Positions 40,695-61,207 of a stretch of DNA of 64,000 bases are shown piece after piece. Made by a program: the position numbers and the translations under genes. Every line of letters begins with the position of its first letter. Position 1 is the first letter of the stretch. The notes under the pieces were generated by a model. That model saw nothing but the letters and a program-made list of their open reading frames with translations. It was not told where the DNA came from and made no database searches. The stretch is from Candidatus Thorarchaeota archaeon (lineage in GTDB: Archaea > Asgardarchaeota > Thorarchaeia > Thorarchaeales > Thorarchaeaceae): positions 128,001 through 192,000 of the forward strand of contig RDOC01000002.1 of NCBI GenBank assembly GCA_011364985.1, given 5' to 3'.

Positions 40695-41401
40695 CTAGCT
40701 GCATCTTCCTTGATGAATATCAGGAACATCGGCAGGACAACTATCAGATAAGCGTCCTTGTTCACACTTTCAAGGCTACTGAGTTATCATTCTACTGCCA
40801 CTAGAGATGCAACGTAGCTCTATCTAGCAGCATTCGTACTATTTTGCATCTTGTGCATGGTGCTGATGATTGTACAAACTCAACCTTTCTGCCAATTCAC
40901 TGAGGATACAGCCGCCATCACCATTCTCCAGCAGCTTAGCACTTACCAAACTGACTATCTATATAGTACCCCGACCGAATATATAAAGCATAATTAATTA
41001 ATCAATTAACTTATTTATTACTGCGGCGATGCAAAGAGGATTACTTGAATATCGTGTTTATCATATTCATCTTAGTTCATCCAGCAAAACCTGAAACTCT
41101 AGCAAAAACTCATTTTCATTTACAATATTGTAGTCTGATAAATCTCCCTCTTCAAGCTGGTGATATAAGTATTCCAGAAGAGATTCATGAAATCTTTCTG
41201 TTGACAGTTACATCGGATGGAGAAAGGGTGGAATACAGAAGTTACATGCAGTTGAATTCGCTCAACATTGGAGTGATGTAACAGGTCCGCAATGGACTGT
41301 AGGGGATGTCAATATCAATACGCATAACTCGAAATGAATTGGAGCTAGGGAGGTCAAGCAGCAATCCTTTTAACATCATGAACTAGCACAAAATGCGGAA
41401 T

Positions 41402-41598
41402 CGGAGCGTAGCTCAATCTGGCAGTCTTGTGCACATCAGTGTACTCGGCCATTAGCAATGGACTGTAGAGAGCGGCCATCGTGACAGCTGTTCGCAGCTA
41501 TCCATCGGTTGCCGGTTCGGCACGATTACCTGCGAATTGTGCGCCGAAAAAATCGCATGTGAATTCCACAAGTGATGGCAATCCGGCCGCTCCGACCA
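41402..41598 (+). tRNA. tRNA-Tyr(GTA) with four introns (41425-41453, 41469-41499, 41519-41548, 41552-41581)
   Basis: C1:G72 acceptor CGGAGCG/CGCTCCG-A-CCA; removing four BHB-bounded segments gives a canonical 77-nt cloverleaf. Confidence 0.85.
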
Positions 41599-45665: not shown

Positions 45666-45785
45666 TTAGAAGGTCCAAGGTTCGGGATGAGGGATCTCTC
45701 CCGGATTCAGACCAAAGGTCCAAGGTTCGGGATGAGGGATCTCTCCCGGATTGCTATGACTAAACCTATCTTTGCCAATTGTCAT
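45666..45785 (-). CDS. putative 39-aa peptide with a duplicated core: MTIGKDRFSHSNPGEIPHPEPWTFGLNPGEIPHPEPWTF
   Basis: Manual translation; repeat period of 45 nt keeps frame and the stop falls right after the second core. Confidence 0.45.
   Translation of the reverse strand: MTIGKDRFSHSNPGEIPHPEPWTFGLNPGEIPHPEPWTF
45670..45752. repeat. 38-bp perfect direct repeat x2 (45670-45707, 45715-45752)
   Basis: AAGGTCCAAGGTTCGGGATGAGGGATCTCTCCCGGATT twice. Confidence 0.95.
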
Positions 45786-47800: not shown

Positions 47801-48300
47801 TTAAAAATCATGAATTTCTGCACCTTCTTCTTCAAGCGTATCTTCTATCTCTTTCAATATCTCATTCCTATTCTCAGAACTTATCTTGCGCCCTATCAGA
47901 TTGAATCTAACCTCGTTCTCAATGTCTTCTGAGGATAAGATTTGGGTCTTAACCTCCTCAGAGGGTAAAGATAGTAATGTCAATTCCACAAAGTCTGTTT
48001 CATTCTCCACATTGCACAAATGGACGATGACATCTAGCCTTCTTCTACGCCTACCTTCCTCAAGACGAACACCGACAAATCGCAGTTCAGGGATCTCTTC
48101 TGGAACTACCTCTTCACCCTCCATTTGAATCCAATCAGACTCTGCTGACTCTAGCTTCTCGATAATGCCCCATTATGGCACTCTGAATCCTGGAATACTC
48201 AAATAGAATGTGTACCAATCGCAGGCTCACAAGAGATTCTGCGTCGATGTTAACATCTTATCTCCGGTTGGATTCAATATCCACAAGCTGGCTACACTCT
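47801..48300 (-). pseudogene. C-terminal remnant of the TnpB-associated large protein (paralog of 56597-57034)
   Basis: VHLCNVE..TDF.EL.LLSL.SE.VK.Q...EVR.NL.GR...EILKEI shared with the 56597-57034 ORF. Confidence 0.7.
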
Positions 48301-48310
48301 GCTAAGAGCT

Positions 48311-48979
48311 CTCTATGTTGCAATTGGTCGTTTGAAGAACATCAGAAATACAGCGCACAAGGGTAATTTCAAGGGAAGAAAGTTCAGGGGCATGATACAC
48401 TCATGGGCCTTTGCTAGGATTACTGAAAGCCTTAGGCATGGGCTTACTCAGCTTGGGTGGAAGGCTGATGGAAAAAACTCTCGTTTTCGAGTTGTGCCTG
48501 AAATTTAGACTTCTATCATGTACTGGAAGTGTGGAGCTAAGGGAATACGACCCAAACAGAGCTACTTCAGATGCCTTTCGTGTGGTCGCCAGACAAATGC
48601 TGATAGGAATGGAGCCATCAATATCGCCGGACGCCTTATTACGCTTACAAAGTCATTGCACTCTGTGAGAGGACTAGGTAAGTGGGCCGACTCTGTCCAG
48701 AGGACAGGGAAGCGTTCACGACTGAAAGCCCGAAAGAAGAAGCCTTCTCAAGGGAAGTCCTTACTCTCAAGAATGGAACAATCATCAAGTTCCAGAGAGT
48801 CCGCGGCTGTTCACTTTGTTCAATCGGACCTTACCAGTTTCAGCGATGACACTGAAAAGAGTGATCATGACCCCGCCATGGAAAGAACTGTGGAAAAGCT
48901 CTCTGTTGCTGGAAGTGATGCAGCCAGAATTCGACAGGAGAAAGAAGTCAGGTCTTCAGGAGGGATCCCATCCCAATGA
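48311..48979 (+). pseudogene. tnpB: 5'-deleted tnpB pseudogene
   Basis: LYVAIGRLKNIR...IHSWAFARIT...VPE aligned to 59029-60705; premature TAG at 48506-48508. Confidence 0.88.
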
Positions 48980-49093
48980 AGGTTGACAATGCTCTTGCTA
49001 ATTCTTGTATTTCAAATGAAATACGAAGAGGTGGTGACACTGGCAGGAGAAGGGCGGAACACAGAGGTTTCTTACAGTTGTGTTCACTCACAA
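48977..49093 (+). ncRNA. putative TnpB omega/reRNA scaffold 3' part and element right end, copy 1
   Basis: Non-coding sequence conserved with 60703-60817; similarity stops abruptly after TTCACTCACAA. Confidence 0.65.
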
Positions 49094-49169
49094 GAAATTG
49101 TAAGAAATAGGTTGTAATACAGGTGCTTTAGTACCCTAGTACGAAACAACACCGTGGTGGATTGTTACG

Positions 49170-49457
49170 ATGGAGGCAATAGAAGCCAAGATAAAGCATG
49201 GTCTTGAAGATAAGGGAATAAAATGCCAATCAGTGTATAGAATCCCTGATCCTGATGACCCAAGACTACTACTATCATTTCATTCACATGATTCCCAGAA
49301 GATTACAACGATGCGAATCCAGCATGTCCTGAACTCTCTTGGAGTTGGTGAGTTCAATGTTCCCAAGGAATTTCAGCGTCTGAGTGCTGCTTTTCTCCAT
49401 CTAGAAGTATCAATGGGAGCTAAGACAGAGAAGAAAATCGCTCCTCGTGCCACATAG
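49170..49457 (+). CDS. small hypothetical protein
   Basis: 95-aa ATG ORF with GGTGG upstream. Confidence 0.7.
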   Translation: MEAIEAKIKHGLEDKGIKCQSVYRIPDPDDPRLLLSFHSHDSQKITTMRIQHVLNSLGVGEFNVPKEFQRLSAAFLHLEVSMGAKTEKKIAPRAT

Positions 49458-49517
49458 TTCGTTTTGATGAACACAGCAGCCGTCTTTCTTATGTACTATC
49501 TCGCATAATACCATCCC

Positions 49518-50273
49518 ATGGATCTCAAACTGAATAAACGAGTCTATTTGGTGACGGCAGCCTCACGCGGTCTTGGCTTTGGAGTTGCTGAAGCACTGGT
49601 TCGCGAAGGTGCTAATGTAGTAATCTGTGGTCGTACTGAAGAATCCTTGAAGAAAGCTGCAGCCAAGCTTGGTAAACAGGCCAAGCATTTAATGGCAGAT
49701 GTTTCAAAGGAGAGAGATATCGATTCACTAGTCGAATTCGTAGATGAGAACTTCAAGAAACTGGACGGTCTCTTTGTCAATGCAGGCGGTCCTCCTCCAG
49801 GAAAGTTCTCTGACATCTCTGACTCCGACTGGGAGAAGGCATTCCATCTCACATTGATGAGCGCAGTCTGGCTCACTAGGAAGTCGCTACCTCTACTAGA
49901 GAAATCGGACGCTCCTTCAGTACTCTATAGCACATCAATCTCAGTGAAGCAACCAATTGACAATCTCCTCTTATCAAATGCTCTTAGACCTGGAGTCATC
50001 GGACTGATGAGAAGCATCTCTCCAGAGCTTGGGCCAAAGGGCGTTCGGATCAATGCCATCTGCCCGGGCTACATCTACACTGCCCGTGTTGAAGAACTAA
50101 TGTCTAGCAACGAGTCTGCAAAAGATGCAATAGAGTCCCGAATTCCTCTAGGGCGAATGGGGACTCCAAGCGAGTTCGGTACAACCTGTGCATTCCTGCT
50201 AAGCCCCGTGGCCAGCTATATACACGGAGCATTGCTTCTGATAGATGGTGGACTCTATCAGGGAATGATGTAA
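49518..50273 (+). CDS. short-chain dehydrogenase/reductase
   Basis: VTAASRGLG, NAGGPP, GVRINAICPG. Confidence 0.93.
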   Translation: MDLKLNKRVYLVTAASRGLGFGVAEALVREGANVVICGRTEESLKKAAAKLGKQAKHLMADVSKERDIDSLVEFVDENFKKLDGLFVNAGGPPPGKFSDISDSDWEKAFHLTLMSAVWLTRKSLPLLEKSDAPSVLYSTSISVKQPIDNLLLSNALRPGVIGLMRSISPELGPKGVRINAICPGYIYTARVEELMSSNESAKDAIESRIPLGRMGTPSEFGTTCAFLLSPVASYIHGALLLIDGGLYQGMM

Positions 50274-50280
50274 GCCATAC

Positions 50281-51258
50281 CTAGAGTTTGAAGTCAGAAG
50301 GGTCGACCTCACCCAATCTCAGGAGTGCCATCTTAGCATAATCGCGGGTTTGCTCATCGGGGTCGTTTACCAGAGTCCTGAGCGTGCCGGCAGCTGGCGG
50401 ATAGGATGCAACTCCCATCGCCCATGCAGCCACTCGTTTCACATCCAAGTCTTCTGATGTCAGCAGTTCAGCAATCGCTCTAAGGATAATCTCCGAGCGT
50501 TTCTCAATCACTAGACGAATCATTCGAACCTGCTCGTTTGGCTCAACTCGTGCGATTGTATCAGCTAGCCCCTGCAGGGCCCTAGCATTATCCATATCAC
50601 GAAGTGCACGAATTGACCAATCCCTGACCTCTTCATCGGGGTCCTCAAGAGCTGCAAGAAGACAGTGAACAGACTCAGGAGAGCTTATGCTACTCAGTGC
50701 CCATGCTCCGGACCGCCGTAGCTCGACCAAAGGGTCGCCCAGCAAGGCACAGAGTGCTCCAATCGTTTCATCATCTGTTACCTTGGTGAGGGCATAGACC
50801 GCTTCCTTACGAACTCTGATATCCTCTTCTCGATTTTTCGCAAGTCTTCGAAGTGTCTGGCCATAGTTCCTTGGATCACTACTCCCGAGAATATGAACCG
50901 CCCATTTTCTGGCTTCAAACTCCTCCTCAGTATCAGTGAGAATGCGTGTCACATCTTCATTAAGAGAGTCGACTCTGGTTCTGTAGACCGCCTGGAGTCC
51001 CCGAACCCGAGTGGTGTTATCCTTGTCCGCAATAGCTTTCTCAAGGACGGGTATAGCAATCTTGCTGGGGAGCAAATCAATCAACCCCAAAAGGCGGTAT
51101 TTTAGGTTGATAATGTTCTTCTCTTCGGACAGCTCGAAGATCCTTGACACTGCTACCTTGAATTCTTCTGGATTATTGATAACATACTCTGCAAGCTCTC
51201 TGCGATGTTCAGCGTCTTCCACTCCTGCCAGCTTTTCGAGAATGAAATTCACAGACAA
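50281..51258 (-). CDS. HEAT (PBS-lyase-like) repeat protein
   Basis: Repeated LxDxxxxVRxxAxxAL units. Confidence 0.9.
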   Translation of the reverse strand: MSVNFILEKLAGVEDAEHRRELAEYVINNPEEFKVAVSRIFELSEEKNIINLKYRLLGLIDLLPSKIAIPVLEKAIADKDNTTRVRGLQAVYRTRVDSLNEDVTRILTDTEEEFEARKWAVHILGSSDPRNYGQTLRRLAKNREEDIRVRKEAVYALTKVTDDETIGALCALLGDPLVELRRSGAWALSSISSPESVHCLLAALEDPDEEVRDWSIRALRDMDNARALQGLADTIARVEPNEQVRMIRLVIEKRSEIILRAIAELLTSEDLDVKRVAAWAMGVASYPPAAGTLRTLVNDPDEQTRDYAKMALLRLGEVDPSDFKL

Positions 51259-51273
51259 TTCCTCATGACGACT

Positions 51274-52278
51274 CTAGTAAATCTTGAAGGCATCAACGTT
51301 CGGTTTTCGCCATCCTTCCTTATGACTATCATGCTTGAGAACATTGTAGTATGCTGCCATCTGTAGTGCAATCGAGTTGGATATTGCTTGTCCAAGGCTG
51401 GTCCGAAGACCGATTTCTTCTGGTGTGAATAGATGATAGCTACGCATCTTTAGAGTATCCAGAAGGGCATGCAAATACCTTCGATCATCCTCCTTTGGAG
51501 GCGAGTCAGTGATTAGCACAGCTCCATCATCTTTATTGATAGTTAACACGTAATGATGTCGGAAGTCCTCCCAGAGAGCGGTCGTGCTTTGCAATACCCC
51601 ATACTCGTTAAACTTCATCATGCCAACTTGTGCAGCTGTATAATTCGCCCCCTCTGATATCATGAAAAGGGGTTTTCCAAGAATGGGAACTTCTGCAATC
51701 TGTTTTCCAATTTTCTCCGCCCAGTCAACAATTTTCTTTCCGCCGCTCTTGAGCAGATTAACATCACTGGAAATCTTGGTTTGTTGAGCTTCCTGATTTT
51801 CAACAGATAGTCTAAGGAGGTAGGCCATGGCTGCGGTGGTTATTGATGAGGGACTGATATTGTACGATGTAGCCCCTGATTTGGTTGTCCAAGTATAATC
51901 TGCATACCCAACAGTATCCCTGTCTTCTTTGTCAGTCAATAGAACCGTTGCTGCCTTTGATTCTTGAGCGAGTTTCAAGGCATCAACTGTTGCCAAGCTT
52001 CTTCCTGAAGCGCTTACACCAATAACAACACAGTCCTTGTCAAGGTGAACCTGTGTGAGTTCCGAGGGGGACAGGGTAACTGCGTTCATTCCCTGCCTTA
52101 GAAAGGCCCATTTTCCATAATCTGCTGCGGCAAGGGAGTCGCCACATCCGGTCAATATAATCAATCGTTTATCATGCAGAATGGTGGCATCTTGAGTATT
52201 TACAGCAGCAAGGGTGTTGGCAATTGAGGTTTCCTGTTTTCTAATTGCAACATAACAAGCATCCAAGAACTCGGTCAT
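51274..52278 (-). CDS. SIS-domain sugar-phosphate isomerase/deglycase (GlmS/FrlB-like)
   Basis: LTGCGDSLAAA, VSASGRS, second SIS domain with KFNE...DFRHH. Confidence 0.88.
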   Translation of the reverse strand: MTEFLDACYVAIRKQETSIANTLAAVNTQDATILHDKRLIILTGCGDSLAAADYGKWAFLRQGMNAVTLSPSELTQVHLDKDCVVIGVSASGRSLATVDALKLAQESKAATVLLTDKEDRDTVGYADYTWTTKSGATSYNISPSSITTAAMAYLLRLSVENQEAQQTKISSDVNLLKSGGKKIVDWAEKIGKQIAEVPILGKPLFMISEGANYTAAQVGMMKFNEYGVLQSTTALWEDFRHHYVLTINKDDGAVLITDSPPKEDDRRYLHALLDTLKMRSYHLFTPEEIGLRTSLGQAISNSIALQMAAYYNVLKHDSHKEGWRKPNVDAFKIY

Positions 52279-52294
52279 TTGATTCTATCTCCTT

Positions 52295-52669
52295 TCACAG
52301 CATGTTGACATCAGGTGGTTCATATCCTAATTGCCTAATCAGTCCAACTATCAGTCCATGGTGATGGATTTCATCAGTGGCTAGGTGCACTAAGACCTTT
52401 TTCACTGTGAAGCTCACAGTCTGGTTGCCCATCGTACACTCTTCACATGGTGTAGTGTGTCAGAGTGAAGATTTCAAAGTATTCCCTAGTTCTTGTTTCC
52501 GATTCTTTCATGGCAACAGAAATACTGTTGAAACCGTCCGAATATTCTTTCTCAGGCAATTGATGCTCTTCTTCTTGAGCTTGTCATCTGACAACTTCTG
52601 AAGAACATCTAGAATGGGTTCTCTAACAGCATAGTTGTGCTCCAGCAGCATCTCTATACAGGACATCAT
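52295..52669 (-). pseudogene. DinB-family pseudogene
   Basis: Manual translation ends HLATDEIHHHGLIVGLIRQLGYEPPDVNML; internal frameshifts. Confidence 0.65.
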
Positions 52670-52723
52670 AGATGAAAAACCATCTAATCGTGTTTATCAG
52701 ATTCACGTTTGGATGCTATTCTA

Positions 52724-52960
52724 TCACAGTTTCCTGTATTTTGGAACAATCTCTTTGATTATCTTTTCAAAGCTAGGTATCTGACCAGGAGCGAAGAATG
52801 GATAATAGAATATGAGTCCATTGATTCCAATCGCTGTATATCTATTCACAACTTCTGCAAAGTGCATTTCCGAGGCAAAGGCGATGTTTGCTTCCGAACC
52901 AAATACTAGCAGCGAACGCCTAACTGATACCAGGTCCCTTGAGTCTGGAATGCCAGATCG
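52724..52960 (-). pseudogene. C-terminal fragment resembling an LLM (luciferase-like) oxidoreductase
   Basis: RRSLLVFG...NRYTAIGINGLIFYYP...FEKIIKEIVPK*; no start codon. Confidence 0.45.
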
Positions 52961-53011
52961 AACAGATTCCTATTTGACAGGTAGAGTCAAGTATTTCTTC
53001 TGCAACTACAA

Positions 53012-54094
53012 GTGAGAAACAAATGTGAATGCCATTTATTCCGGTTTCAAATAAAGGGATACCATAAATTTACTAATGTCATGAGAAGTATATCCGAGTC
53101 AACTGATTTGAATAGCATCTTTAGAAATATGACACTTGGATACTGGTTGAGGGCTTCGTTTCAAATAGCTATTCTGCTCGTATTGCCCTATGGGATTGAC
53201 TTCTGGAATATCAACACGTTGGATTGTCTGTACTATCATTCAATCGCTTTTCATCTGATGTTCTCTGGATACTATGCAGAATTGGATGTGGAGTTCGCTA
53301 ATTTCCTTACATTTCTTTTTGCAATTATTCTTTGTATCCCAGCTATTCTCTTCGATACGCTTCTCTTTAGGGCAGAAAAAGGCAAGCCAATTCGGATTCC
53401 AGGAATAGTAGTTATTCTTACCACAGTTCTTCTTGTCATCCTGCTCGGTCAGGAACTACCTAATCTGGCTTTTCCAGGATTTCAAGTTCTTCTAACTGGG
53501 AACCTTCTCCGTTTTACAAACCTTGTTCTAGTAGTGCTTGTATTCCTTCCTATTCTCAGCAGAGAAACTTCACTACTTCTTTTCGACAGAGCTAAAGCAG
53601 AAGAGAACAATGATGAAGAGAAGCCGGATATGCAACTCAGAAACCAGTTTCTTGGTGTCACATTGGGGCTGCTGATTCTTGTGATGCCCTACGTTCTTCT
53701 TGTTGATATCCATACATCTTTCCGACTTGATTTTCATCTGTTTGCAAGTGTTGCCTACTTTATGATTGAGTGCGACGTACGTTATAACTACACAGCAATC
53801 AGCTTCTCTGCTGTCAGTATATACAATCTAGTTTTGTATCTTCTAGTTGCAAGTCTTCAGGTGATGTATTCCTATGGTGTTCTAAGATACCTTAGGGGTC
53901 TAGAAAGTCGAAATCAAACTTTAATCTGTGGTGTACTTGGTCTACTGCTCCCCCTTGCTGTCTTCTCGATAGTATCACCTTTCTATGTCCGCGGCCAGCT
54001 TTCATATCCGGCTCCCTTTCCAGTTGTTTTCTTGCTCGGCATTGCTGTCCTATGGTCTGTGAAACCTCTAGGGATACGTGTGATTGAAGCCTGA
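53012..54094 (+). CDS. multi-pass membrane protein (apparent internal duplication)
   Basis: About 8 hydrophobic segments; true start may be ATG 53081. Confidence 0.75.
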   Translation: MRNKCECHLFRFQIKGYHKFTNVMRSISESTDLNSIFRNMTLGYWLRASFQIAILLVLPYGIDFWNINTLDCLYYHSIAFHLMFSGYYAELDVEFANFLTFLFAIILCIPAILFDTLLFRAEKGKPIRIPGIVVILTTVLLVILLGQELPNLAFPGFQVLLTGNLLRFTNLVLVVLVFLPILSRETSLLLFDRAKAEENNDEEKPDMQLRNQFLGVTLGLLILVMPYVLLVDIHTSFRLDFHLFASVAYFMIECDVRYNYTAISFSAVSIYNLVLYLLVASLQVMYSYGVLRYLRGLESRNQTLICGVLGLLLPLAVFSIVSPFYVRGQLSYPAPFPVVFLLGIAVLWSVKPLGIRVIEA

Positions 54095-54141
54095 ATCTCA
54101 CATGATCTTGAAGGAAAAACTGTATGTTCAGCCAAAAGAAT

Positions 54142-54172
54142 TGGCGCTCCCGCCGGAACTTAAACCCGGGTC
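54142..54172 (-). repeat. degenerate copy of the tRNA-Asp 3' end (att-like), inverted
   Basis: Reverse complement GACCCGGGTTTAAGTTCCGGCGGGAGCGCCA matches 56548-56578 at 26/31 positions. Confidence 0.75.
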
Positions 54173-55310
54173 AATGCCCTCGTTCAATCAGTGTGTTCAC
54201 TTGTTTCTGCGTTAGCATCGAGAAATCAGTAAGTCTAGATTGCACGAGATTGCCAAATTCCTCCTTACTAATTGGTGTAATAAGCTCAGTTAGCTGTTTT
54301 ATCAGTCCAAATGACACATTAAGTGCAGGTCCACTTGATTTTCTTGCTTTTGACGCTTTGCCTTTCTTACCCCCTAGTCCTTTTACCCAATCAGTCATCG
54401 CTTTATAGACTTCATCCTTGCTTTTACCATCAACTACTCCATGCGTTTTGCTATAAATTTGCCAAAGTTCATCAAATTTCCCTTGAGTAATATTCTCTAG
54501 CGGACTATATCCTCTAATTCCATCAGGATACACCCAAATGAATGCATATGCATCACTGTATCTTGGAAGTTGAGGAGTGTTGTAAGGAAGAAGCAACATT
54601 TTCAAACCATTTTCATGGAATCCAAATCTGCTGGATGAAATCTTGACCAAAATGCCTCTGAATGACTCCTGAAGTTTCTTGAATGCTCTTTCAAATGATT
54701 CGGAAACCATAGTCTGAACACGCAAGCAAGGTTTCTCGTTGCCATACTCTTCTAGGATTTCTCTACAAAAGTCATCATACTCAGCCCCAAGAATCATTTG
54801 TTCGACTTTGGAACGTGTTTCCATTTTTGTTTCGTCAATCGGTTCCAAAGATTCATAGAACTCATCTATTGCATCAGGTCGAATTTCCCATATCACGCCT
54901 TCAGTTGCAACATCATCCGTTGCCTGTCTAATATCAGCTGGAAGAAATGGTCTGAATGCACCTGTTCTGGCTCTGATTACATGTTTTGCAACTCCAATTA
55001 GCGACTCATCGTCTAGTTGTTTCGATTTGATTTCTTCGTCACTCACAAAGACAGTTAGCTTTCTTCCACCATATCTACGGAATTGTTTCTCTTCTTCCTT
55101 TTCTCTAATTACCACTTCTGGGGTAGCAGTTAGAAGGGCCTTGGAAAATACCGTTTCCGTGTTTTTGTTTATTTTCTCAAGGATAGGATTCCAACCCTCT
55201 CCCATAAACTTCCTTTTTCTCCACCAATGTCTTGGCTTGGAAAGCTGCCTGCGTATCCAATTTCCTATATCCTTAAGTAACGTGTATGCAAAGGATACAT
55301 CTACCCCCAC
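54171..55310 (-). CDS. hypothetical protein (379 aa)
   Basis: Long ORF; GGAGG before GTG. Confidence 0.75.
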   Translation of the reverse strand: MGVDVSFAYTLLKDIGNWIRRQLSKPRHWWRKRKFMGEGWNPILEKINKNTETVFSKALLTATPEVVIREKEEEKQFRRYGGRKLTVFVSDEEIKSKQLDDESLIGVAKHVIRARTGAFRPFLPADIRQATDDVATEGVIWEIRPDAIDEFYESLEPIDETKMETRSKVEQMILGAEYDDFCREILEEYGNEKPCLRVQTMVSESFERAFKKLQESFRGILVKISSSRFGFHENGLKMLLLPYNTPQLPRYSDAYAFIWVYPDGIRGYSPLENITQGKFDELWQIYSKTHGVVDGKSKDEVYKAMTDWVKGLGGKKGKASKARKSSGPALNVSFGLIKQLTELITPISKEEFGNLVQSRLTDFSMLTQKQVNTLIERGH

Positions 55311-55335
55311 TACTTATTGCCCTCCCTTAAGTTAA

Positions 55336-55677
55336 TCAAGATGCGTCTTCTTCGCAATCCCACATCTTTTCTTCGAGTTGCCTCATATATAATTCCAAGC
55401 ATGATGGGTTCTTGCATACAAATTCAATTTCGCCATTCATCTCATCTTCTGCAAGAGTTCCTAGGTTTTGAAATGATATCGCATTTCCACATGCAGCACA
55501 AGTCATTCTCCCCAATTCGAAATCTTTCCAGACTTTCCGTTTTCGGAGTATATACTCTACCTCAAAGGCGTCAACTGGATCCATTTGCAGCCTTGACCTA
55601 ACATATCCTATCCCCTTAGCTGTAGATATAGTTGCAATGAAGAAACCTACTACAATGATTAGTTCAAATGGCCACAT
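55336..55677 (-). CDS. membrane-anchored small Zn-finger-like protein
   Basis: N-terminal TM; CAAC...CKNPSC. Confidence 0.65.
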   Translation of the reverse strand: MWPFELIIVVGFFIATISTAKGIGYVRSRLQMDPVDAFEVEYILRKRKVWKDFELGRMTCAACGNAISFQNLGTLAEDEMNGEIEFVCKNPSCLELYMRQLEEKMWDCEEDAS

Positions 55678-55933
55678 ACCACCACTTCACGGTCCATTTC
55701 TTTTGCACAAACTCAATCTCATCTCGGAATCGGTGAGATTTAACTTTTGGGTCAATGCATCTCTTTGCTAAGTAGACATGGATTTGAATATTTATCGTAT
55801 TAAGAAACTCAAATTCGAAGAATAATTCAGGAAGATTCACGAACTTCTTCGTAATCGATTTTCAGAACTGGCACCCCTTGTTTCTTTACAACAGTCATAA
55901 GACCTTCATCATCCAGAGTATAGCCTCTTTCAC

Positions 55934-56152
55934 TTAGGAAATTAAAACCTTCGCATTCCCCTCCATTAGAATATAGTATTCATTGAACCATTCCATGAAA
56001 TCTTGACGAAACAGTACGGTAAAGAGCTTGACACGTTCCCTGAAGATCTTCGCCCTCACTCCACCTTCAAGTATAGCAATGAAGAAGGCAAGCAGACTTG
56101 AAGTAAGAAATCCTGTTATTAAATTCCCAATAACGCCTACAAAGTAGTTCAT
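55934..56152 (-). CDS. small membrane protein or degraded gene
   Basis: 72-aa ORF with a hydrophobic N-terminus. Confidence 0.35.
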   Translation of the reverse strand: MNYFVGVIGNLITGFLTSSLLAFFIAILEGGVRAKIFRERVKLFTVLFRQDFMEWFNEYYILMEGNAKVLIS

Positions 56153-56470
56153 TTTCGGATGGATACTGCATGAACCAAATCAAAGCCATTATACTTGCAC
56201 ACAATACAAAACTCGTTGTTTTGTGAACTCGATGACCAAATCACGTTCATGAGTTGTGAATTCAAACCCCTCTGGTATTTCGGGACCATTTTCTTTATTC
56301 ATTTTCAAATCATGCCCAAGTAGTGAAACCTTCTAGTGTCACATTGTCATGAGAACTGATAAACCTGCACTCAGATAGAGTGACCTTCAAGAAACACTGT
56401 GAAACCGATTTTGCCATTGTTCAAGAACGACAACTTTAATAGAAAACCAAAAGTGGAGCAGTCGAACCAT

Positions 56471-56578
56471 GCCCCTGTAGTGTAGTACGGTCAGTACTCC
56501 AGATGACCTGAAGTATCCGGAATAGCATTCAAGACTGTCACTCTTGAGACCCGGGTTCGAATCCCGGCGGGGGCGCCA
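56471..56578 (+). tRNA. tRNA-Asp(GTC) with ~31-nt intron in the D-arm
   Basis: GCCCCTG/CGGGGGC-G-CCA, CAAGA/TCTTG stem, GTC 56537-39; extra segment about 56494-56524, junctions ambiguous. Confidence 0.88.
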
Positions 56579-56596
56579 TCTCCTTTTCGGGAAGAA

Positions 56597-58769
56597 TCAG
56601 GAATAGTCTATTCTTACTCCCCTCTTCTCAAGTGCATCCATGATCTCCTTCAAAATCTCATCATTTTCATCAGAAGTCACCCTACGACCCCTTAGATTGC
56701 ATCGGACTTCTCGTTCAATGTAATCAGCCGATATTGATTGAATCTTCACAAGCTCAGACGAGAGCGATAACAGAACCAATTCCGTAAAGTCAGTATCATC
56801 CTCCACATTGCACAAGTGAACGACAACATTCAACATTCTTCCACGGATAGATTCTTCAATGCGGGCACTGACAGAAAGCGTGGTAGCTTCCAACTCAACA
56901 AGATGGTTCAGCAGATGCCAGTTCTTGGCAAGCCAAGCTGCGCTTCTTCCAGAGGAAGTGGGAGAGGGTACAGAAATGTATTGCGTGAAGTGGACTTTGT
57001 CTTCTATTCGCTCATTCATCAAATGGATTTTCAAAACGTATTGATTCCGAAGGAACGATTTTCTTCAAAATATGCTTAGGACCTTTAGCTGGAACCATCG
57101 TGATTGCAATTCTGGGCACTGCTTTGCTAGAATCTGTGTTTTCAAATGTCAGCGTCGCCCATTTTTCATAGAATTCGCCCATCACTAGCGAATCAGCAAG
57201 TTGACTAACGAGTTGATCAAAGACCTTCTTTGTGATTTCATAATCTTGAGATATATCAAGTGTCACAACGCCCTTCCAGAGGGTTTTCAGTTCTAGAACA
57301 TCACCAGCAAGTGCATTGTATTCCGCAAGTATCGATTGTTCATATGCATCTAATTGGCCAAGATGAGAATGCGGAGGAATAGAATCCAGCATTGCTTTCC
57401 ATTCAGCTTCTGTAAGACTTTCTTTCCATGAATAGAATTCAGGAGCATAAACATTCGATTCTTTGGTTCGAGGTTTCCTACCGTAGAGGTTGAAACGAAA
57501 CCCTGCTTTTGTCTTCACCTCAAGTATCATAATTGGGGTCCAGATGTACTGATTCGCAGCTTTCTTGTTACGAACAAAGAGAACAAGATCAATCCTACCA
57601 GCTCCTTGAGGTCCAGTAACAGGGACTTCTGCAAGATACTGCATTCCAGACGGCTCCTGTAGAAGGTCGTCACCAGCAAAGACGGCTGCTTTCAGAGAAC
57701 TAGGATGTGAAAATCCTGAGAGCAGAACTCTATGCCAGTCGTTTCCTTCTCGTTGTGTCTTTTTGCTAACTTCTTCAATGAAATTGGAAATATCGGCATC
57801 TCCAACTATATCATTCTCAATATGAGCAAGGATAACCTGTCCTCTTTTCCCAGTGGAGTCATCCTTTTCCATCTCAGCTTTTGCCTTGCCCATGAGAAAA
57901 TCAACCCCTGGATTCTCAGTTGGACCCTCTATCTGCTCACTGATTCTCTTGGCACTGCCAATTCTTTGACTAAACCGAGTTCTAATCTCAAGCACAAGTC
58001 TACGAAGCTCTTGGTCTGCATCCGGATAGAAGTTTTTTCGACCAATCCTTCCTCCCGTGTAAATCCAATCAAGGAAAGGAATCAATCTATGAGTCAAAAG
58101 TCGAATGTATCTCTGACTCTCCTTTCGTGGAACACCATGGATGAAGCATTGACGACACAACTCAACTAGATGAGCACGAATCATATCACCGAAATCAAGA
58201 GCGGGAAGCGTGGGATGGGTGAGTAGTATCCGAGGTTTCTTGGAGTTGCCTGGATATCCAGCTTTTAGATGAACCTTGGCATCTTCTAAGGTTGACAATT
58301 CATCAGCTACACGCTTTGGGATAACCTTCGTGCGGCCGTCTGAGAATTGCCTAATTTCATAGAGTTGTGGGTTTGGAAAGGGATATCTAGTGACCAGCAG
58401 ATCACGTAGCGTAGAGCCTGCAGAATTGAGTAGGGCATTAAGGGGACCGACAGTCCCCTCTCTCCAGCTGTATACCCGTTTGAACTCCTTGTTACCATAT
58501 CTTGCGGTACTATACCAAAGCATTTTGAGATATAATCTTCTCAATACTGGTTCTATACCTTGTACTGAAGAGAAGTCATGAGAGCCCTTAGCTTTGGATG
58601 ATTTCCACTCCTTGCGTGCGATTTTCCAGTTCTTGCTAATCTGCTGATAGAACCTGTACGTCTTTGCATTCTTCCGTTTTGATGCCAATCTTACAAGGGC
58701 TGACAATCCAGCATAAATCGCATCTGCCAAGACCACATTTGGTCTGAATTCCTGAATTTTCCGCCCCAA
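56597..58769 (-). pseudogene. large PD-(D/E)XK (RecB/Cas4-like motif) nuclease-domain protein, frameshifted at 57012-57019
   Basis: YLAEVPV...GRIDLVL...LEVKT...QLDAY; ORFs 57012-58769 and 56597-57034 join if a 4-bp duplication is removed. Confidence 0.7.
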
Positions 58770-59028
58770 ATAGACTCCTCGATACTTAGAATCCCTTTTT
58801 ATTTATAAGTAATTCTTCCCTATTTGGAAATCTCCATTACTAATTTAAAGGTCGCATATGGCTTCTTTAAAAGAATAAAGGCCTATTAGATTATTTTGTT
58901 TAATAAGTTTATATTGTTTGTCACAGAAATATGTACGAGTTCAAAGGCTCTACTCTTGACAATAAAGGGAGTGAACTCAACTGACTCAGAAATGGGTCAG
59001 AAGTTTATATTGTATTGGGCGAAAATCA

Positions 59029-60705
59029 ATGGCTCGGTTTCAAGGAACTACAATCAGCGTCAAGGTCCCGATAAACTGGGAAGCAATGACGATGAAATCT
59101 AAGCAGAGGCTTAGACAGATTGTAGGAAGGGACACGAGGGTGATTCGTGCATTTCTCGGGATAATCGAACAACATGAAAACGACTTGCTTGCTGGTCGCA
59201 ATAAGCATCGAATTCATGACGGGAAGCTAGACAAGCTTACCATGACCGCACTCAGAGTCAAGGCTGGCTATGCTCAAAGAGCCAGTGTTCCTCATGACTT
59301 CAAGGCTCGCTTCCCACGCATCTCCCAAAACGAGATAACCGAGTGTCGACAGACTGCTGTTGCTCTCTACAAGAGCTACCTGAAACTTAGAGCTAAAAGA
59401 GGCTTGAATGTTTCACGACCAGCGTCAATCAATCAAAGCCGACGGATACCAAGATGGGTCTTTTCGCAGAGATTCAAACTTCTTGAGAGAAGTACTGCTG
59501 CTTCACGATGGTGGCTTGATATTAGGGACTCTCTTGACTCAGTACAAGAGGGACGAACATTTCATGACCGACTGAATATTCCCCTAAAGATGTCACCTTT
59601 CCACTTCAACCAGATTAAACGAGGCGATGTGAAGGCAGTTCAAATCTTTACTGACCGCTTTGGGAAGTGGTGGGCAACCATTGCGGTTAGGATTTTTACA
59701 GACCTACCTCCCAAAGAGGATCTTCCGATAGGAATCCTTGGAATTGACTTGGGTATTGAAAAGGCAGCCTGCTCGACACTGATTACACCGAAGAAAACAA
59801 GAGAAACAAGGTACTTTGTCCAGCGGCAGAAAGTCAAGGTCATCAAGAAGTACGACAGACTTGTTGCTGACCTTCAGAGGACGATGCAGAATCACAAAAG
59901 TAACGGACTTCCATATGACAAGATGGCGAAAAAGCTCCGGCAGATGAAAGCCAAGAGAGAGAATGTTGCTAAAGAGTACGACCGTGTTCTTCTTCGCCAG
60001 ATTCTCGACTACATCTTAGATCTATCGGAGAAGTATACACTCTATGTTGCCATTGGTCGCCTGAAGAATATACGACTACGTGCTAAACGAGGAAACTACA
60101 AGGGGCGAAGGTTCAGAGCAATGATTCATTCATGGGCCTTTGCTCGAATAACAGATGGCCTCAAACATGGCCTCGCTCAGCAGGGGTGGAAGGTCGATGG
60201 AAAGGATACCTGCTTTAGAGCTGTTCCAGAGGCATGGACTTCTATCATGTGCTGGAAATGCGGGAGCAAGGGAACACGTCCCAAACAGAATTACTTCCAT
60301 TGTACCTCCTGTGGACACAAGACCAATGCTGACAGAAATGGTAGTATCAACATTGCAGCACGTATGCTCATGCTCACAAAGTCACTGCACTCTGTGAGAG
60401 GACTAGGTATGTGGACTAGGGCTGTAGATAGGGCTCGACGTGCGCGACCGAAAGCCCGAAAGAAGAAGTCTTCTCAAGGGAAGTCCTTACTCTCCTCTAA
60501 GGATTCAACATCAAATCTTGGAGAGTCCGCGGCTGTTCACTTTGTCCAGTCGGACTTTGCTGGCTTCAGTGATGAAACAAGCGAGAGTGATGATGACCCC
60601 GTCGTGGCAAATACTGTGAAAGCTCTCTCTGTCATTGAGGGTGATGACTCAATAGCAATACAGGAGAAAGAAGCCAGGTCTTCAGGAGGGATTCCATCCC
60701 GATGA
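59029..60705 (+). CDS. tnpB: TnpB/Cas12-like RNA-guided nuclease (558 aa)
   Basis: RuvC-I GIDLG, zinc finger CWKC/CTSC, RuvC-III NADRNGSINIA; RuvC-II reads VAIG, with an alternative Glu in VPEAWTS. Confidence 0.92.
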   Translation: MARFQGTTISVKVPINWEAMTMKSKQRLRQIVGRDTRVIRAFLGIIEQHENDLLAGRNKHRIHDGKLDKLTMTALRVKAGYAQRASVPHDFKARFPRISQNEITECRQTAVALYKSYLKLRAKRGLNVSRPASINQSRRIPRWVFSQRFKLLERSTAASRWWLDIRDSLDSVQEGRTFHDRLNIPLKMSPFHFNQIKRGDVKAVQIFTDRFGKWWATIAVRIFTDLPPKEDLPIGILGIDLGIEKAACSTLITPKKTRETRYFVQRQKVKVIKKYDRLVADLQRTMQNHKSNGLPYDKMAKKLRQMKAKRENVAKEYDRVLLRQILDYILDLSEKYTLYVAIGRLKNIRLRAKRGNYKGRRFRAMIHSWAFARITDGLKHGLAQQGWKVDGKDTCFRAVPEAWTSIMCWKCGSKGTRPKQNYFHCTSCGHKTNADRNGSINIAARMLMLTKSLHSVRGLGMWTRAVDRARRARPKARKKKSSQGKSLLSSKDSTSNLGESAAVHFVQSDFAGFSDETSESDDDPVVANTVKALSVIEGDDSIAIQEKEARSSGGIPSR

Positions 60706-60817
60706 TGGTTGACAATGCTCTTGCTAATCTAGGAATCCATTGGATTCCAAGAGGTGGCGACACTGGCAAGAGAGGGGCGGAACACAGAGGTTTCATGCAG
60801 TTGTGGTTCACTCACAA
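60703..60817 (+). ncRNA. putative TnpB omega/reRNA scaffold 3' part and element right end, copy 2
   Basis: Conserved with 48977-49093, with a structure-preserving hairpin swap. Confidence 0.65.
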
Positions 60818-61207
60818 TTTTAAAAGCAGGTCATACACTACAGGGGCTCGGATTGCTCGGCCTCCAGCATTTCTCCGAACTTGTAGCACCAGCCCTAGTT
60901 TCACAACCGGTTTTGTAGAAACTGAAGATTTTTCTCGATACAGAACTGCTTCCTGTCAGTCTGTTAGCCAACTAGCGCAATGCTTTTTACCGAAGAAGCT
61001 AGTATGTACACTGGTTCACCCAAACCTGCCTAGATGATATTCTATCTTTCGTTTTATGGAAAGGTTTTTATCAAGACAATTTGCCGTCCGAATAGCCCAG
61101 GCAGAACTGCTTCCCACTCTAGCATGGCCAAGCGTTACATTCCATAGAAGCCATTATACTACATGACTATATGTCTGGCATGTCACGGTGGCCTGTGATG
61201 ACGATAG

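What the first reader, a model, noticed from the sequence alone, without database searches (positions are those of the whole stretch)
47801..60817. TnpB paired head-to-head with a large PD-(D/E)XK nuclease gene, present twice
Seen: at 56597-60817 a RecB/Cas4-motif nuclease gene (minus strand) and tnpB (plus strand) diverge from a 259-bp spacer, directly after tRNA-Asp. At 47801-49093 the 3' ends of both homologous genes survive in the same arrangement, as if one deletion removed the middle. The copies are clearly diverged, so the pairing is not a recent chance insertion. No TnpA, serine recombinase, integrase or CRISPR array is present. Inference: an undescribed two-gene RNA-guided module (mobile element or defence system) in which TnpB works with a second large nuclease. 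The partner looks internally deleted here, so intact versions may be much longer.
Basis: partly seen in the sequence, partly recalled or inferred. Interest (0 to 1): 0.78.

Follow-up and report, generated by a model that had tools for sequence, protein, structure and literature searches.

The report
Asgard Cas1-TnpB transposon at tRNA-Asp
The two-gene pair is real. It is a copy of a jumping element of Asgard archaea already catalogued by computer but never tested: a Cas1-type integrase plus an RNA-guided TnpB nuclease, whose guide here points at the start of the aspartate tRNA gene while an altered copy of that tRNA sits beside the element.

Summary
In detail: a 259-bp head-to-head pair beside tRNA-Asp, plus a deleted second copy.

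The pair is not undescribed and does have an integrase. The partner opens with a Cas1 catalytic domain (E73/H185/D195 kept), then a Cas4/RecB nuclease; ~1700-aa intact relatives add a RecA-fold domain. This matches the aCas1-TnpB loci of Altae-Tran et al. 2023. This scan also reported the element before on other DNA.

Linkage: 27 of 27 partner loci have a divergent tnpB. The two window copies are independent insertions.

Detail beyond the paper's main text:
- The guide starts after an RGGTYA end.
- Three filled/empty pairs show 6-8-bp target duplications.
- The guide here is a conserved 14-mer against tRNA-Asp.
- The adjacent tRNA-Asp has a rare base change at the likely TAM.

TnpB and aCas1 partners are shuffled between elements, which argues against a dedicated complex. 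Best reading: aCas1 moves the element, and TnpB cuts unoccupied tRNA-Asp alleles to retain or spread it. The window's frameshift is absent from an independent assembly, and the deletion may be polymorphic.

The parts
56597..58769 (-). aCas1 gene, internally deleted: Cas1 catalytic domain (aa 1-255), Cas4/RecB-type PD-(D/E)XK nuclease (aa 272-563), start of a RecA-fold domain, then about 975 codons missing at 56873/56872, then the C-terminal ~90 aa. A 4-nt duplication at 57012 breaks the frame in the window.
58770..59028 (.). 259-bp AT-rich divergent spacer (244-360 bp in 42 paired elements); inferred shared promoter region
59029..60705 (+). TnpB, 558 aa, rearranged RuvC (D240; G343 in place of the canonical Glu; alternative E401; D435), C4 zinc finger; predicted active
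60706..60833 (+). 3' part of the omegaRNA scaffold / element right end: covarying stem, GTTCACTCA motif (60806-60814), RGGTYA terminus ending at 60833
60834..60847 (+). Inferred guide: 14 nt antisense to tRNA-Asp nt 14 to 1; identical in three other genomes of another genus, while DNA beyond +18 is unrelated
56429..56578 (+). tRNA-Asp(GTC) with promoter (56429-56445) and D-loop intron, inverted relative to the native gene of relatives; rare allele with a pyrimidine at position -3 before the guide match
54134..54172 (-). Degenerate 3' end of a tRNA-Asp in the native orientation: remnant of the old gene or an att-like scar
54171..55677 (-). Two ORFs (379 aa, 113 aa) found between the tRNA remnant and the inverted tRNA-Asp; absent from the 40 related loci tested; probable cargo
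47801..48308 (-). Second copy: 3' remnant of aCas1, frameshifted
48311..48979 (+). Second copy: tnpB remnant from codon 338, with one premature stop
48980..49114 (+). Second copy: omegaRNA end / right end; host DNA resumes at 49115 with a conserved promoter-region motif of the next gene

Best explanation
Both loci are copies of a multi-copy Thorarchaeota transposon made of aCas1 and TnpB.

Shown:
- Cas1 + Cas4/RecB + RecA-like architecture, by predicted folds.
- Catalytic residues are kept.
- tnpB is almost always the head-to-head neighbour of aCas1.
- Many unrelated insertion sites exist.
- Target duplications are 6-8 bp.
- The guide begins right after the RGGTYA end.

Inferred:
- aCas1 cuts and joins the element ends.
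- TnpB, loaded with an RNA read across the right end, cuts the unoccupied version of the site and so keeps or spreads the element by repair, as shown for IS200/IS605.
- At the main locus the target is the 5' end of the essential tRNA-Asp gene. The adjacent inverted tRNA-Asp keeps the 14-nt match but changes the base at -3, the likely TAM. It probably escapes cutting, giving a cut-and-rescue effect (this step about 50%).

The window's aCas1 has lost its middle and is probably unable to mobilise, while tnpB and its guide are intact. The second locus is a dead, separate insertion.
For: Fold. The top 12 structural matches for aa 1-255 are all Cas1, including a casposase (best Z 12.7, rmsd 4.0 over 177 aa; range Z 8.7-12.7). 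Residues 272-563 match Cas4/RecB/MGME1 more weakly (Z 6-7.5). The deleted part begins with a RecA/RadA/KaiC fold (Z 11.9, rmsd 4.3, 207 aa). E73, H185 and D195 are invariant or nearly so in 79 sequences.

Spread and linkage. The partner is in 48 of 85 family genomes, often in several copies. 27/27 aCas1 loci with upstream DNA have a divergent tnpB (19 of the 558-aa type, 8 of a 721-aa type), and 30/40 full tnpBs have aCas1.

Ends. Filled/empty pairs L042/L035, L068/L074 and L131/L136 give 6, 6 and 8 bp duplications, with the guide equal to the right flank. The second locus is empty in 13 relatives.

Guide. It is 14/14 identical in three other genomes while DNA beyond +18 is 15-32% identical. 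All 4 genomes with this exact guide carry the rare tRNA-Asp allele, versus 3 of the other 82. 30 of 31 native alleles have a purine at -3. Other elements at tRNA-Asp aim at the D-loop or the promoter, and their own tRNA-Asp has an intron or a changed promoter at that spot.

Literature. PMC10691335; bioRxiv 10.1101/2023.03.14.532601.
Against: No activity has been measured for aCas1 or this TnpB. aCas1 lacks the N-terminal beta domain of Cas1, so how it would dimerise is unknown.

A left end and target duplication could not be fixed for either window copy. Only one of three clean pairs shows an inverted terminal motif.

The TAM is tentative: 17/17 purines at -3 when alleles were hand-picked, about 14 vs 4 by top hit, and 6 vs 1 (p 0.125) in an automated test. 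The four guide carriers may be one lineage.

Only a minority of guides match tRNAs (10 non-self of 128 in the strict test, about 22 in the looser one). The 721-aa TnpB elements of this genome carry an IS607 serine recombinase next to aCas1, so aCas1 is not the only possible mover.
Confidence: 0.68

Rival explanations
1. TnpB physically steers aCas1 to the guide-matched site, giving RNA-guided integration in the manner of CRISPR-associated transposons.
For: Near-obligate pairing across two very different TnpB clades. Guides often match tRNA genes. Some guides are stand-alone 14-20-nt pieces rather than a continuing flank.
Against: Partners are shuffled: pairwise identity correlation is 0.19, the nearest neighbour is the same in only 7 of 42 elements, and TnpBs 70-79% identical to ours sit with aCas1s 25-64% identical to ours. 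RuvC is kept active-looking, unlike Cas12k. In clean cases the guide is simply the flank created by insertion.
Confidence: 0.12
2. aCas1 is not the transposase but an adaptation enzyme (Cas1-Cas4 like) that writes new guides behind the omegaRNA end, or is cargo. Movement comes from an IS607 serine recombinase acting in cis or trans.
For: Cas1 plus Cas4 is the usual spacer-acquisition pair (established knowledge). Tandem 'RNA end + older guide' units occur in L139, L140 and L141. Near neighbours on the TnpB tree carry different guides. An IS607 tnpA sits beside aCas1 in the two 721-aa-type elements of this genome.
Against: No tnpA was found beside about 25 elements of the 558-aa type. 6-8-bp target duplications fit a staggered-cut integrase, not a serine recombinase (established knowledge). 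There is no Cas2-like neighbour and no regular array. Nested insertions explain the tandem units.
Confidence: 0.12
3. A host defence module in which TnpB and a giant nuclease cut invading DNA.
For: Two nucleases and a RecA-like domain; common in one family.
Against: The guides that could be assigned match host tRNA genes, promoters or flanks. Copies are scattered, patchy and often decayed. There is no PADLOC hit for the partner.
Confidence: 0.05
4. The two window loci come from one segmental duplication, or the pairing is chance.
For: They lie 11.7 kb apart in the same orientation.
Against: Flanks are unrelated and the second site is empty in 13 relatives. The two TnpBs are separated by a 100/100 branch and are never one clade in 200 bootstrap trees. 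Linkage is 27/27 elsewhere.
Confidence: 0.01

Closest known systems
aCas1-associated TnpB loci of Asgard archaea (groups Cas1H-Asgard-1 and -2; Altae-Tran et al. 2023, PMC10691335; aCas1 named by Makarova et al. 2020, cited there, not readable here)
   Same: Asgard host, Cas1-variant gene paired with tnpB, GTTCACTCA motif downstream of tnpB, two distinct TnpB groups, proposed to be a transposon with aCas1 as transposase.
   Different: The paper places the guide upstream of GTTCACTCA and its main text never mentions tRNA. Here target matches start after a further RGGTYA motif 13-27 nt downstream, target duplications are 6-8 bp, and the guide aims at tRNA-Asp with an altered tRNA-Asp next to the element.
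Casposons (Beguin et al. 2016, PMC5137440)
   Same: Cas1-family integrase as the proposed mobility enzyme, target duplication, frequent use of tRNA genes.
   Different: No family B polymerase found in the element, no long terminal inverted repeats seen, duplication 6-8 bp rather than 15 bp. The Cas1 lacks its N-terminal beta domain and is fused to Cas4-like, RecA-like and further domains. TnpB and an omegaRNA are present.
IS200/IS605 and IS607 TnpB elements (Meers et al., bioRxiv 10.1101/2023.03.14.532601)
   Same: The guide is read from the flank at the right end; TnpB is predicted to cut the vacant site and retain the element.
   Different: No Y1 or serine TnpA at this locus, divergent rather than tandem gene layout, 558-aa TnpB with a rearranged RuvC-II, target duplications.
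CRISPR-associated transposons (type V-K, Cas12k)
   Same: An RNA-guided TnpB-family protein beside an integrase; tRNA-directed short guides resemble homing spacers.
   Different: No Tn7 TnsB/TnsC/TniQ, no CRISPR array, nuclease residues kept, and effector and integrase do not co-evolve tightly.

Membership tests
aCas1-TnpB loci (Cas1H-Asgard) | Host is an Asgard archaeon | tested here: met
   Homologues are named Thorarchaeota and are confined to two Asgard families
aCas1-TnpB loci (Cas1H-Asgard) | Cas1-variant gene next to tnpB | tested here: met
   Cas1 fold for aa 1-255, Z up to 12.7, triad kept; 27/27 linkage
aCas1-TnpB loci (Cas1H-Asgard) | GTTCACTCA motif downstream of tnpB | tested here: met
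   60806-60814 and 49082-49090; conserved across loci
aCas1-TnpB loci (Cas1H-Asgard) | Locus often flanked by repeats | tested here: inconclusive
   6-8-bp duplications in three relatives and tRNA repeats here; no clean left end in the window
aCas1-TnpB loci (Cas1H-Asgard) | TnpB falls inside the published clusters Asgard-1 or -2 | not testable with these tools
   The paper's supplement is not held; Makarova 2020 is not held
Casposon | Cas1-family integrase with catalytic triad | tested here: met
   Casposase 6opm Z 10.7, rmsd 4.7, 192 aa; E73/H185/D195
Casposon | Family B DNA polymerase gene inside the element | tested here: not met
   The ORFs between 54134 and 60833 are aCas1, TnpB and two small ORFs with no polymerase hit
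Casposon | Long terminal inverted repeats and ~15-bp target duplication | tested here: not met
   Duplications of 6-8 bp and at most a short inverted motif in three filled/empty pairs; no inverted repeat of the right end in the window
IS200/IS605 or IS607 | TnpB with RuvC triad, zinc finger and omegaRNA at the right end | tested here: met
   D240/E401/D435, C4 finger, covarying stem
IS200/IS605 or IS607 | Y1 or serine TnpA in the element | tested here: not met
   No Y1 hit in the genome (74% complete); serine recombinase only beside the 721-aa-type elements on other contigs
Type V CRISPR / CAST | CRISPR array and inactive Cas12k with TnsB/TnsC/TniQ | tested here: not met
   No array, no such neighbours, RuvC residues kept

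The most novel reading that the evidence does not exclude
An array-less forerunner of type V CRISPR. The Cas1-Cas4-RecA protein either is directed by TnpB's RNA to insert the element at the guide-matched site, or writes new 14-20-nt guides behind the RGGTYA end. Elements competing for tRNA-Asp would then act as natural cut-and-rescue drives, each supplying a resistant copy of an essential tRNA.
Probability: 0.2. Interest if true: 0.88.

Novelty: new member of a known kind. Interest (0 to 1): 0.5.

Why it matters
aCas1-TnpB elements join the two ancestral halves of type V CRISPR, a Cas1 integrase and a TnpB nuclease, in one mobile unit of the archaea closest to eukaryotes. I found no experimental study of them.

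This work supplies inputs for a first test: a revised guide boundary, a named target, a candidate TAM position, target-duplication lengths, intact ~1700-aa representatives, and an allele pair predicted to differ in sensitivity. If the rescue step holds, it is a natural RNA-guided cut-and-rescue drive on an essential tRNA. The gene pair itself is not a new system.

Tried and rejected
Searches that found nothing or little:
- Pfam, NCBIfam, PADLOC and PDB sequence searches gave nothing for the partner.
- Foldseek on the 585-aa model gave only weak Cas1 rows; the wide structural search was needed.
- The metagenome scan with a single protein gave one locus.
- The C-terminal ~800 aa of the intact partner were not tested as separate domains, so I make no claim about their fold.

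Tests with no usable answer:
- Complex prediction of aCas1 5-562 with TnpB 1-440 returned no answer (score 0.01). It is not used as evidence either way.
- No RNA holder was listed, so expression is untested.
- Single-sequence folding of the RNA region was not better than shuffles (z -0.63); only the alignment shows covariation.

Ideas considered and rejected:
- The paper's proposed guide position upstream of GTTCACTCA: windows 18 and 25 nt before the junction gave 0 and 1 tRNA matches in 128, though the paper's exact window was not reproduced.
- A casposon-length 14-bp duplication of the tRNA 5' end: not present as a direct repeat.
- The hand-picked 17/17 TAM count is biased and is not relied on.
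- My notebook split of '20 + 7' for the 27 loci was a miscount; it is 19 + 8.

Full report
Observation. The window is part of a Thorarchaeota genome. tnpB (59029-60705, +, 558 aa) and a large minus-strand gene starting at 58769 diverge from a 259-bp spacer, and the large gene ends 18 bp from an intron-containing tRNA-Asp. At 47801-49114 the 3' ends of both genes abut, 69-75% identical in DNA to the main copy.

What the partner is. Relatives are 1400-1900 aa and occur in 48 of 85 genomes of the family, often several times, and in one other Asgard family. A confident model of the first 585 aa (pLDDT 87) matches Cas1 proteins over residues 1-255; the top twelve structural hits are all Cas1, including a casposase. 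Residues 272-563 match Cas4/RecB-type nucleases more weakly. The Cas1 triad E73/H185/D195 and the nuclease motifs are conserved. I read the passage: two Asgard TnpB groups are paired with 'aCas1', proposed as the transposase, with a GTTCACTCA motif downstream. That motif is present at both window loci. The pair is therefore known by computation and does contain an integrase.

State of the window copy. The gene has lost about 975 codons in frame at 56873/56872 and carries a 4-nt duplication at 57012. An independent assembly of a probable source run lacks the duplication, which would give one 722-aa ORF. Its contigs stop exactly at the deletion junction, overlapping by the 2-nt microhomology. 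I infer that an intact allele may coexist in the sample, or that the junction is an assembly shortcut; raw reads would decide. The deletion in the second copy is spanned by a single contig and is real. TnpB has the rearranged RuvC described as probably active (Gly for the RuvC-II Glu, an alternative Glu before the zinc finger).

Linkage and independence. All 27 partner loci with upstream DNA have a divergent tnpB: 19 of the 558-aa type and 8 of a 721-aa type. In reverse, 30 of 40 full-length tnpBs have the partner. All four aCas1 genes of this genome are so paired. The second window locus sits in an intergenic region that is empty (179-245 bp) in 13 relatives, and host DNA resumes right after its right end. 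The two TnpBs are not sisters. However, aCas1 and TnpB are shuffled among elements (identity correlation 0.19; same nearest neighbour in 7 of 42). That argues for co-residence in one element rather than a tightly matched complex.

Ends and guide. Downstream of tnpB a conserved RNA-like region with a covarying stem runs through GTTCACTCA and a short variable linker to RGGTYA, after which conservation stops (138 elements). Three filled/empty comparisons show 6-8-bp target duplications, with the post-RGGTYA sequence equal to the right flank. This is the usual TnpB arrangement, in which the vacant site is the target. A minority of guides match tRNA genes or their promoters for 14-20 nt starting at the junction: 10 non-self of 128 in a strict masked test, against 0 upstream and 3-4 downstream.

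The tRNA-Asp locus. In about 30 relatives tRNA-Asp lies on the minus strand a short way upstream of tRNA-Lys and rpoB. Here the matching side of the element holds only 14 nt of its 5' end, directly after RGGTYA. A 3' remnant lies at 54134-54172, and a complete inverted tRNA-Asp follows the aCas1 stop. The 14 nt are identical in three genomes of another genus, while DNA beyond +18 is unrelated. This suggests selection on a guide. The inverted tRNA keeps the match but reads CGTAC instead of the common CGGAC just before it. All four genomes with the exact guide have this allele, against 3 of 82 others, and 30 of 31 native alleles have a purine at that -3 position. Other elements at tRNA-Asp target the D-loop or the promoter, and their own tRNA copy has an intron or a changed promoter exactly there. 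A third, tnpB-less RNA end at 41195-41288 has a guide against the neighbouring tRNA-Tyr, whose intron alters the same upstream position. A purine at -3 as TAM is suggested but not established (6 vs 1, p 0.125, in the unbiased test), and the carriers are related.

Mechanism. Most likely aCas1 integrates the element, and TnpB cuts unoccupied alleles so that repair keeps or copies the element. At this locus the target is an essential tRNA, and the adjacent copy is probably resistant. Folds, residues, linkage, duplications and sequence matches are shown; all activities are inferred. Rivals are guide-directed integration (0.12), aCas1 as guide writer or cargo with an IS607 recombinase as mover (0.12; such a recombinase does sit beside the 721-aa-type elements), and defence (0.05).

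Verdict. This is a real feature and a new, partly broken member of a computationally known but untested element family, which this scan has also reported from other genomes. The guide boundary, short duplications, partner shuffling and allele pair make it directly testable. Interest 0.5.

Noticed in passing
window 41195-41302 (+) and tRNA-Tyr from 41403: Orphan omegaRNA end without tnpB; its 14-nt guide matches the neighbouring multi-intron tRNA-Tyr (41455-41468), whose D-loop intron changes the bases just before the match.
   Followed up: partly
G000 C21 46806-54828 and C17 133507-141324: aCas1 paired with a 721-aa TnpB with canonical RuvC and flanked by an IS607 serine recombinase (intact on C21, remnant on C17); C17 lies at tRNA-His.
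   Followed up: partly
G000 C16 48803-55700: aCas1-TnpB element between tRNA-Gly and a diverged repeat of the tRNA-Gly 3' half; the same layout in L065 and L091, with no clear RGGTYA end.
   Followed up: partly
L139, L140, L141 downstream of tnpB: Tandem degenerate omegaRNA ends, some followed by an older tRNA-Asp D-loop guide: nested insertions or a primitive array.
   Followed up: partly
L153 (rpoB-upstream locus): Guide is a 17-nt match to the common tRNA-Asp promoter, including the promoter in this window (56429-56445), while the element's own tRNA-Asp promoter differs after 11 nt.
   Followed up: partly
L154 7655-7895 and 18353-18593: Element flanked by inverted, 80%-identical ferredoxin genes, echoing the inverted tRNA copy seen here.
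   Followed up: no
window 45670-45752: Exact 38-bp direct repeat with 45-bp period in an intergenic region.
   Followed up: no
rpoB-upstream loci L100-L138: tRNA-Asp alleles carry up to three introns in varying positions (D-loop, anticodon, T-arm), and orphan tRNA-Asp 3' ends are frequent: an insertion hotspot.
   Followed up: partly
G000 C15 207894-208131 and C17 204546-205520: Two further tnpB 3' remnants with omegaRNA ends; the C17 one sits on the 5' half of tRNA-Arg(CCG).
   Followed up: no
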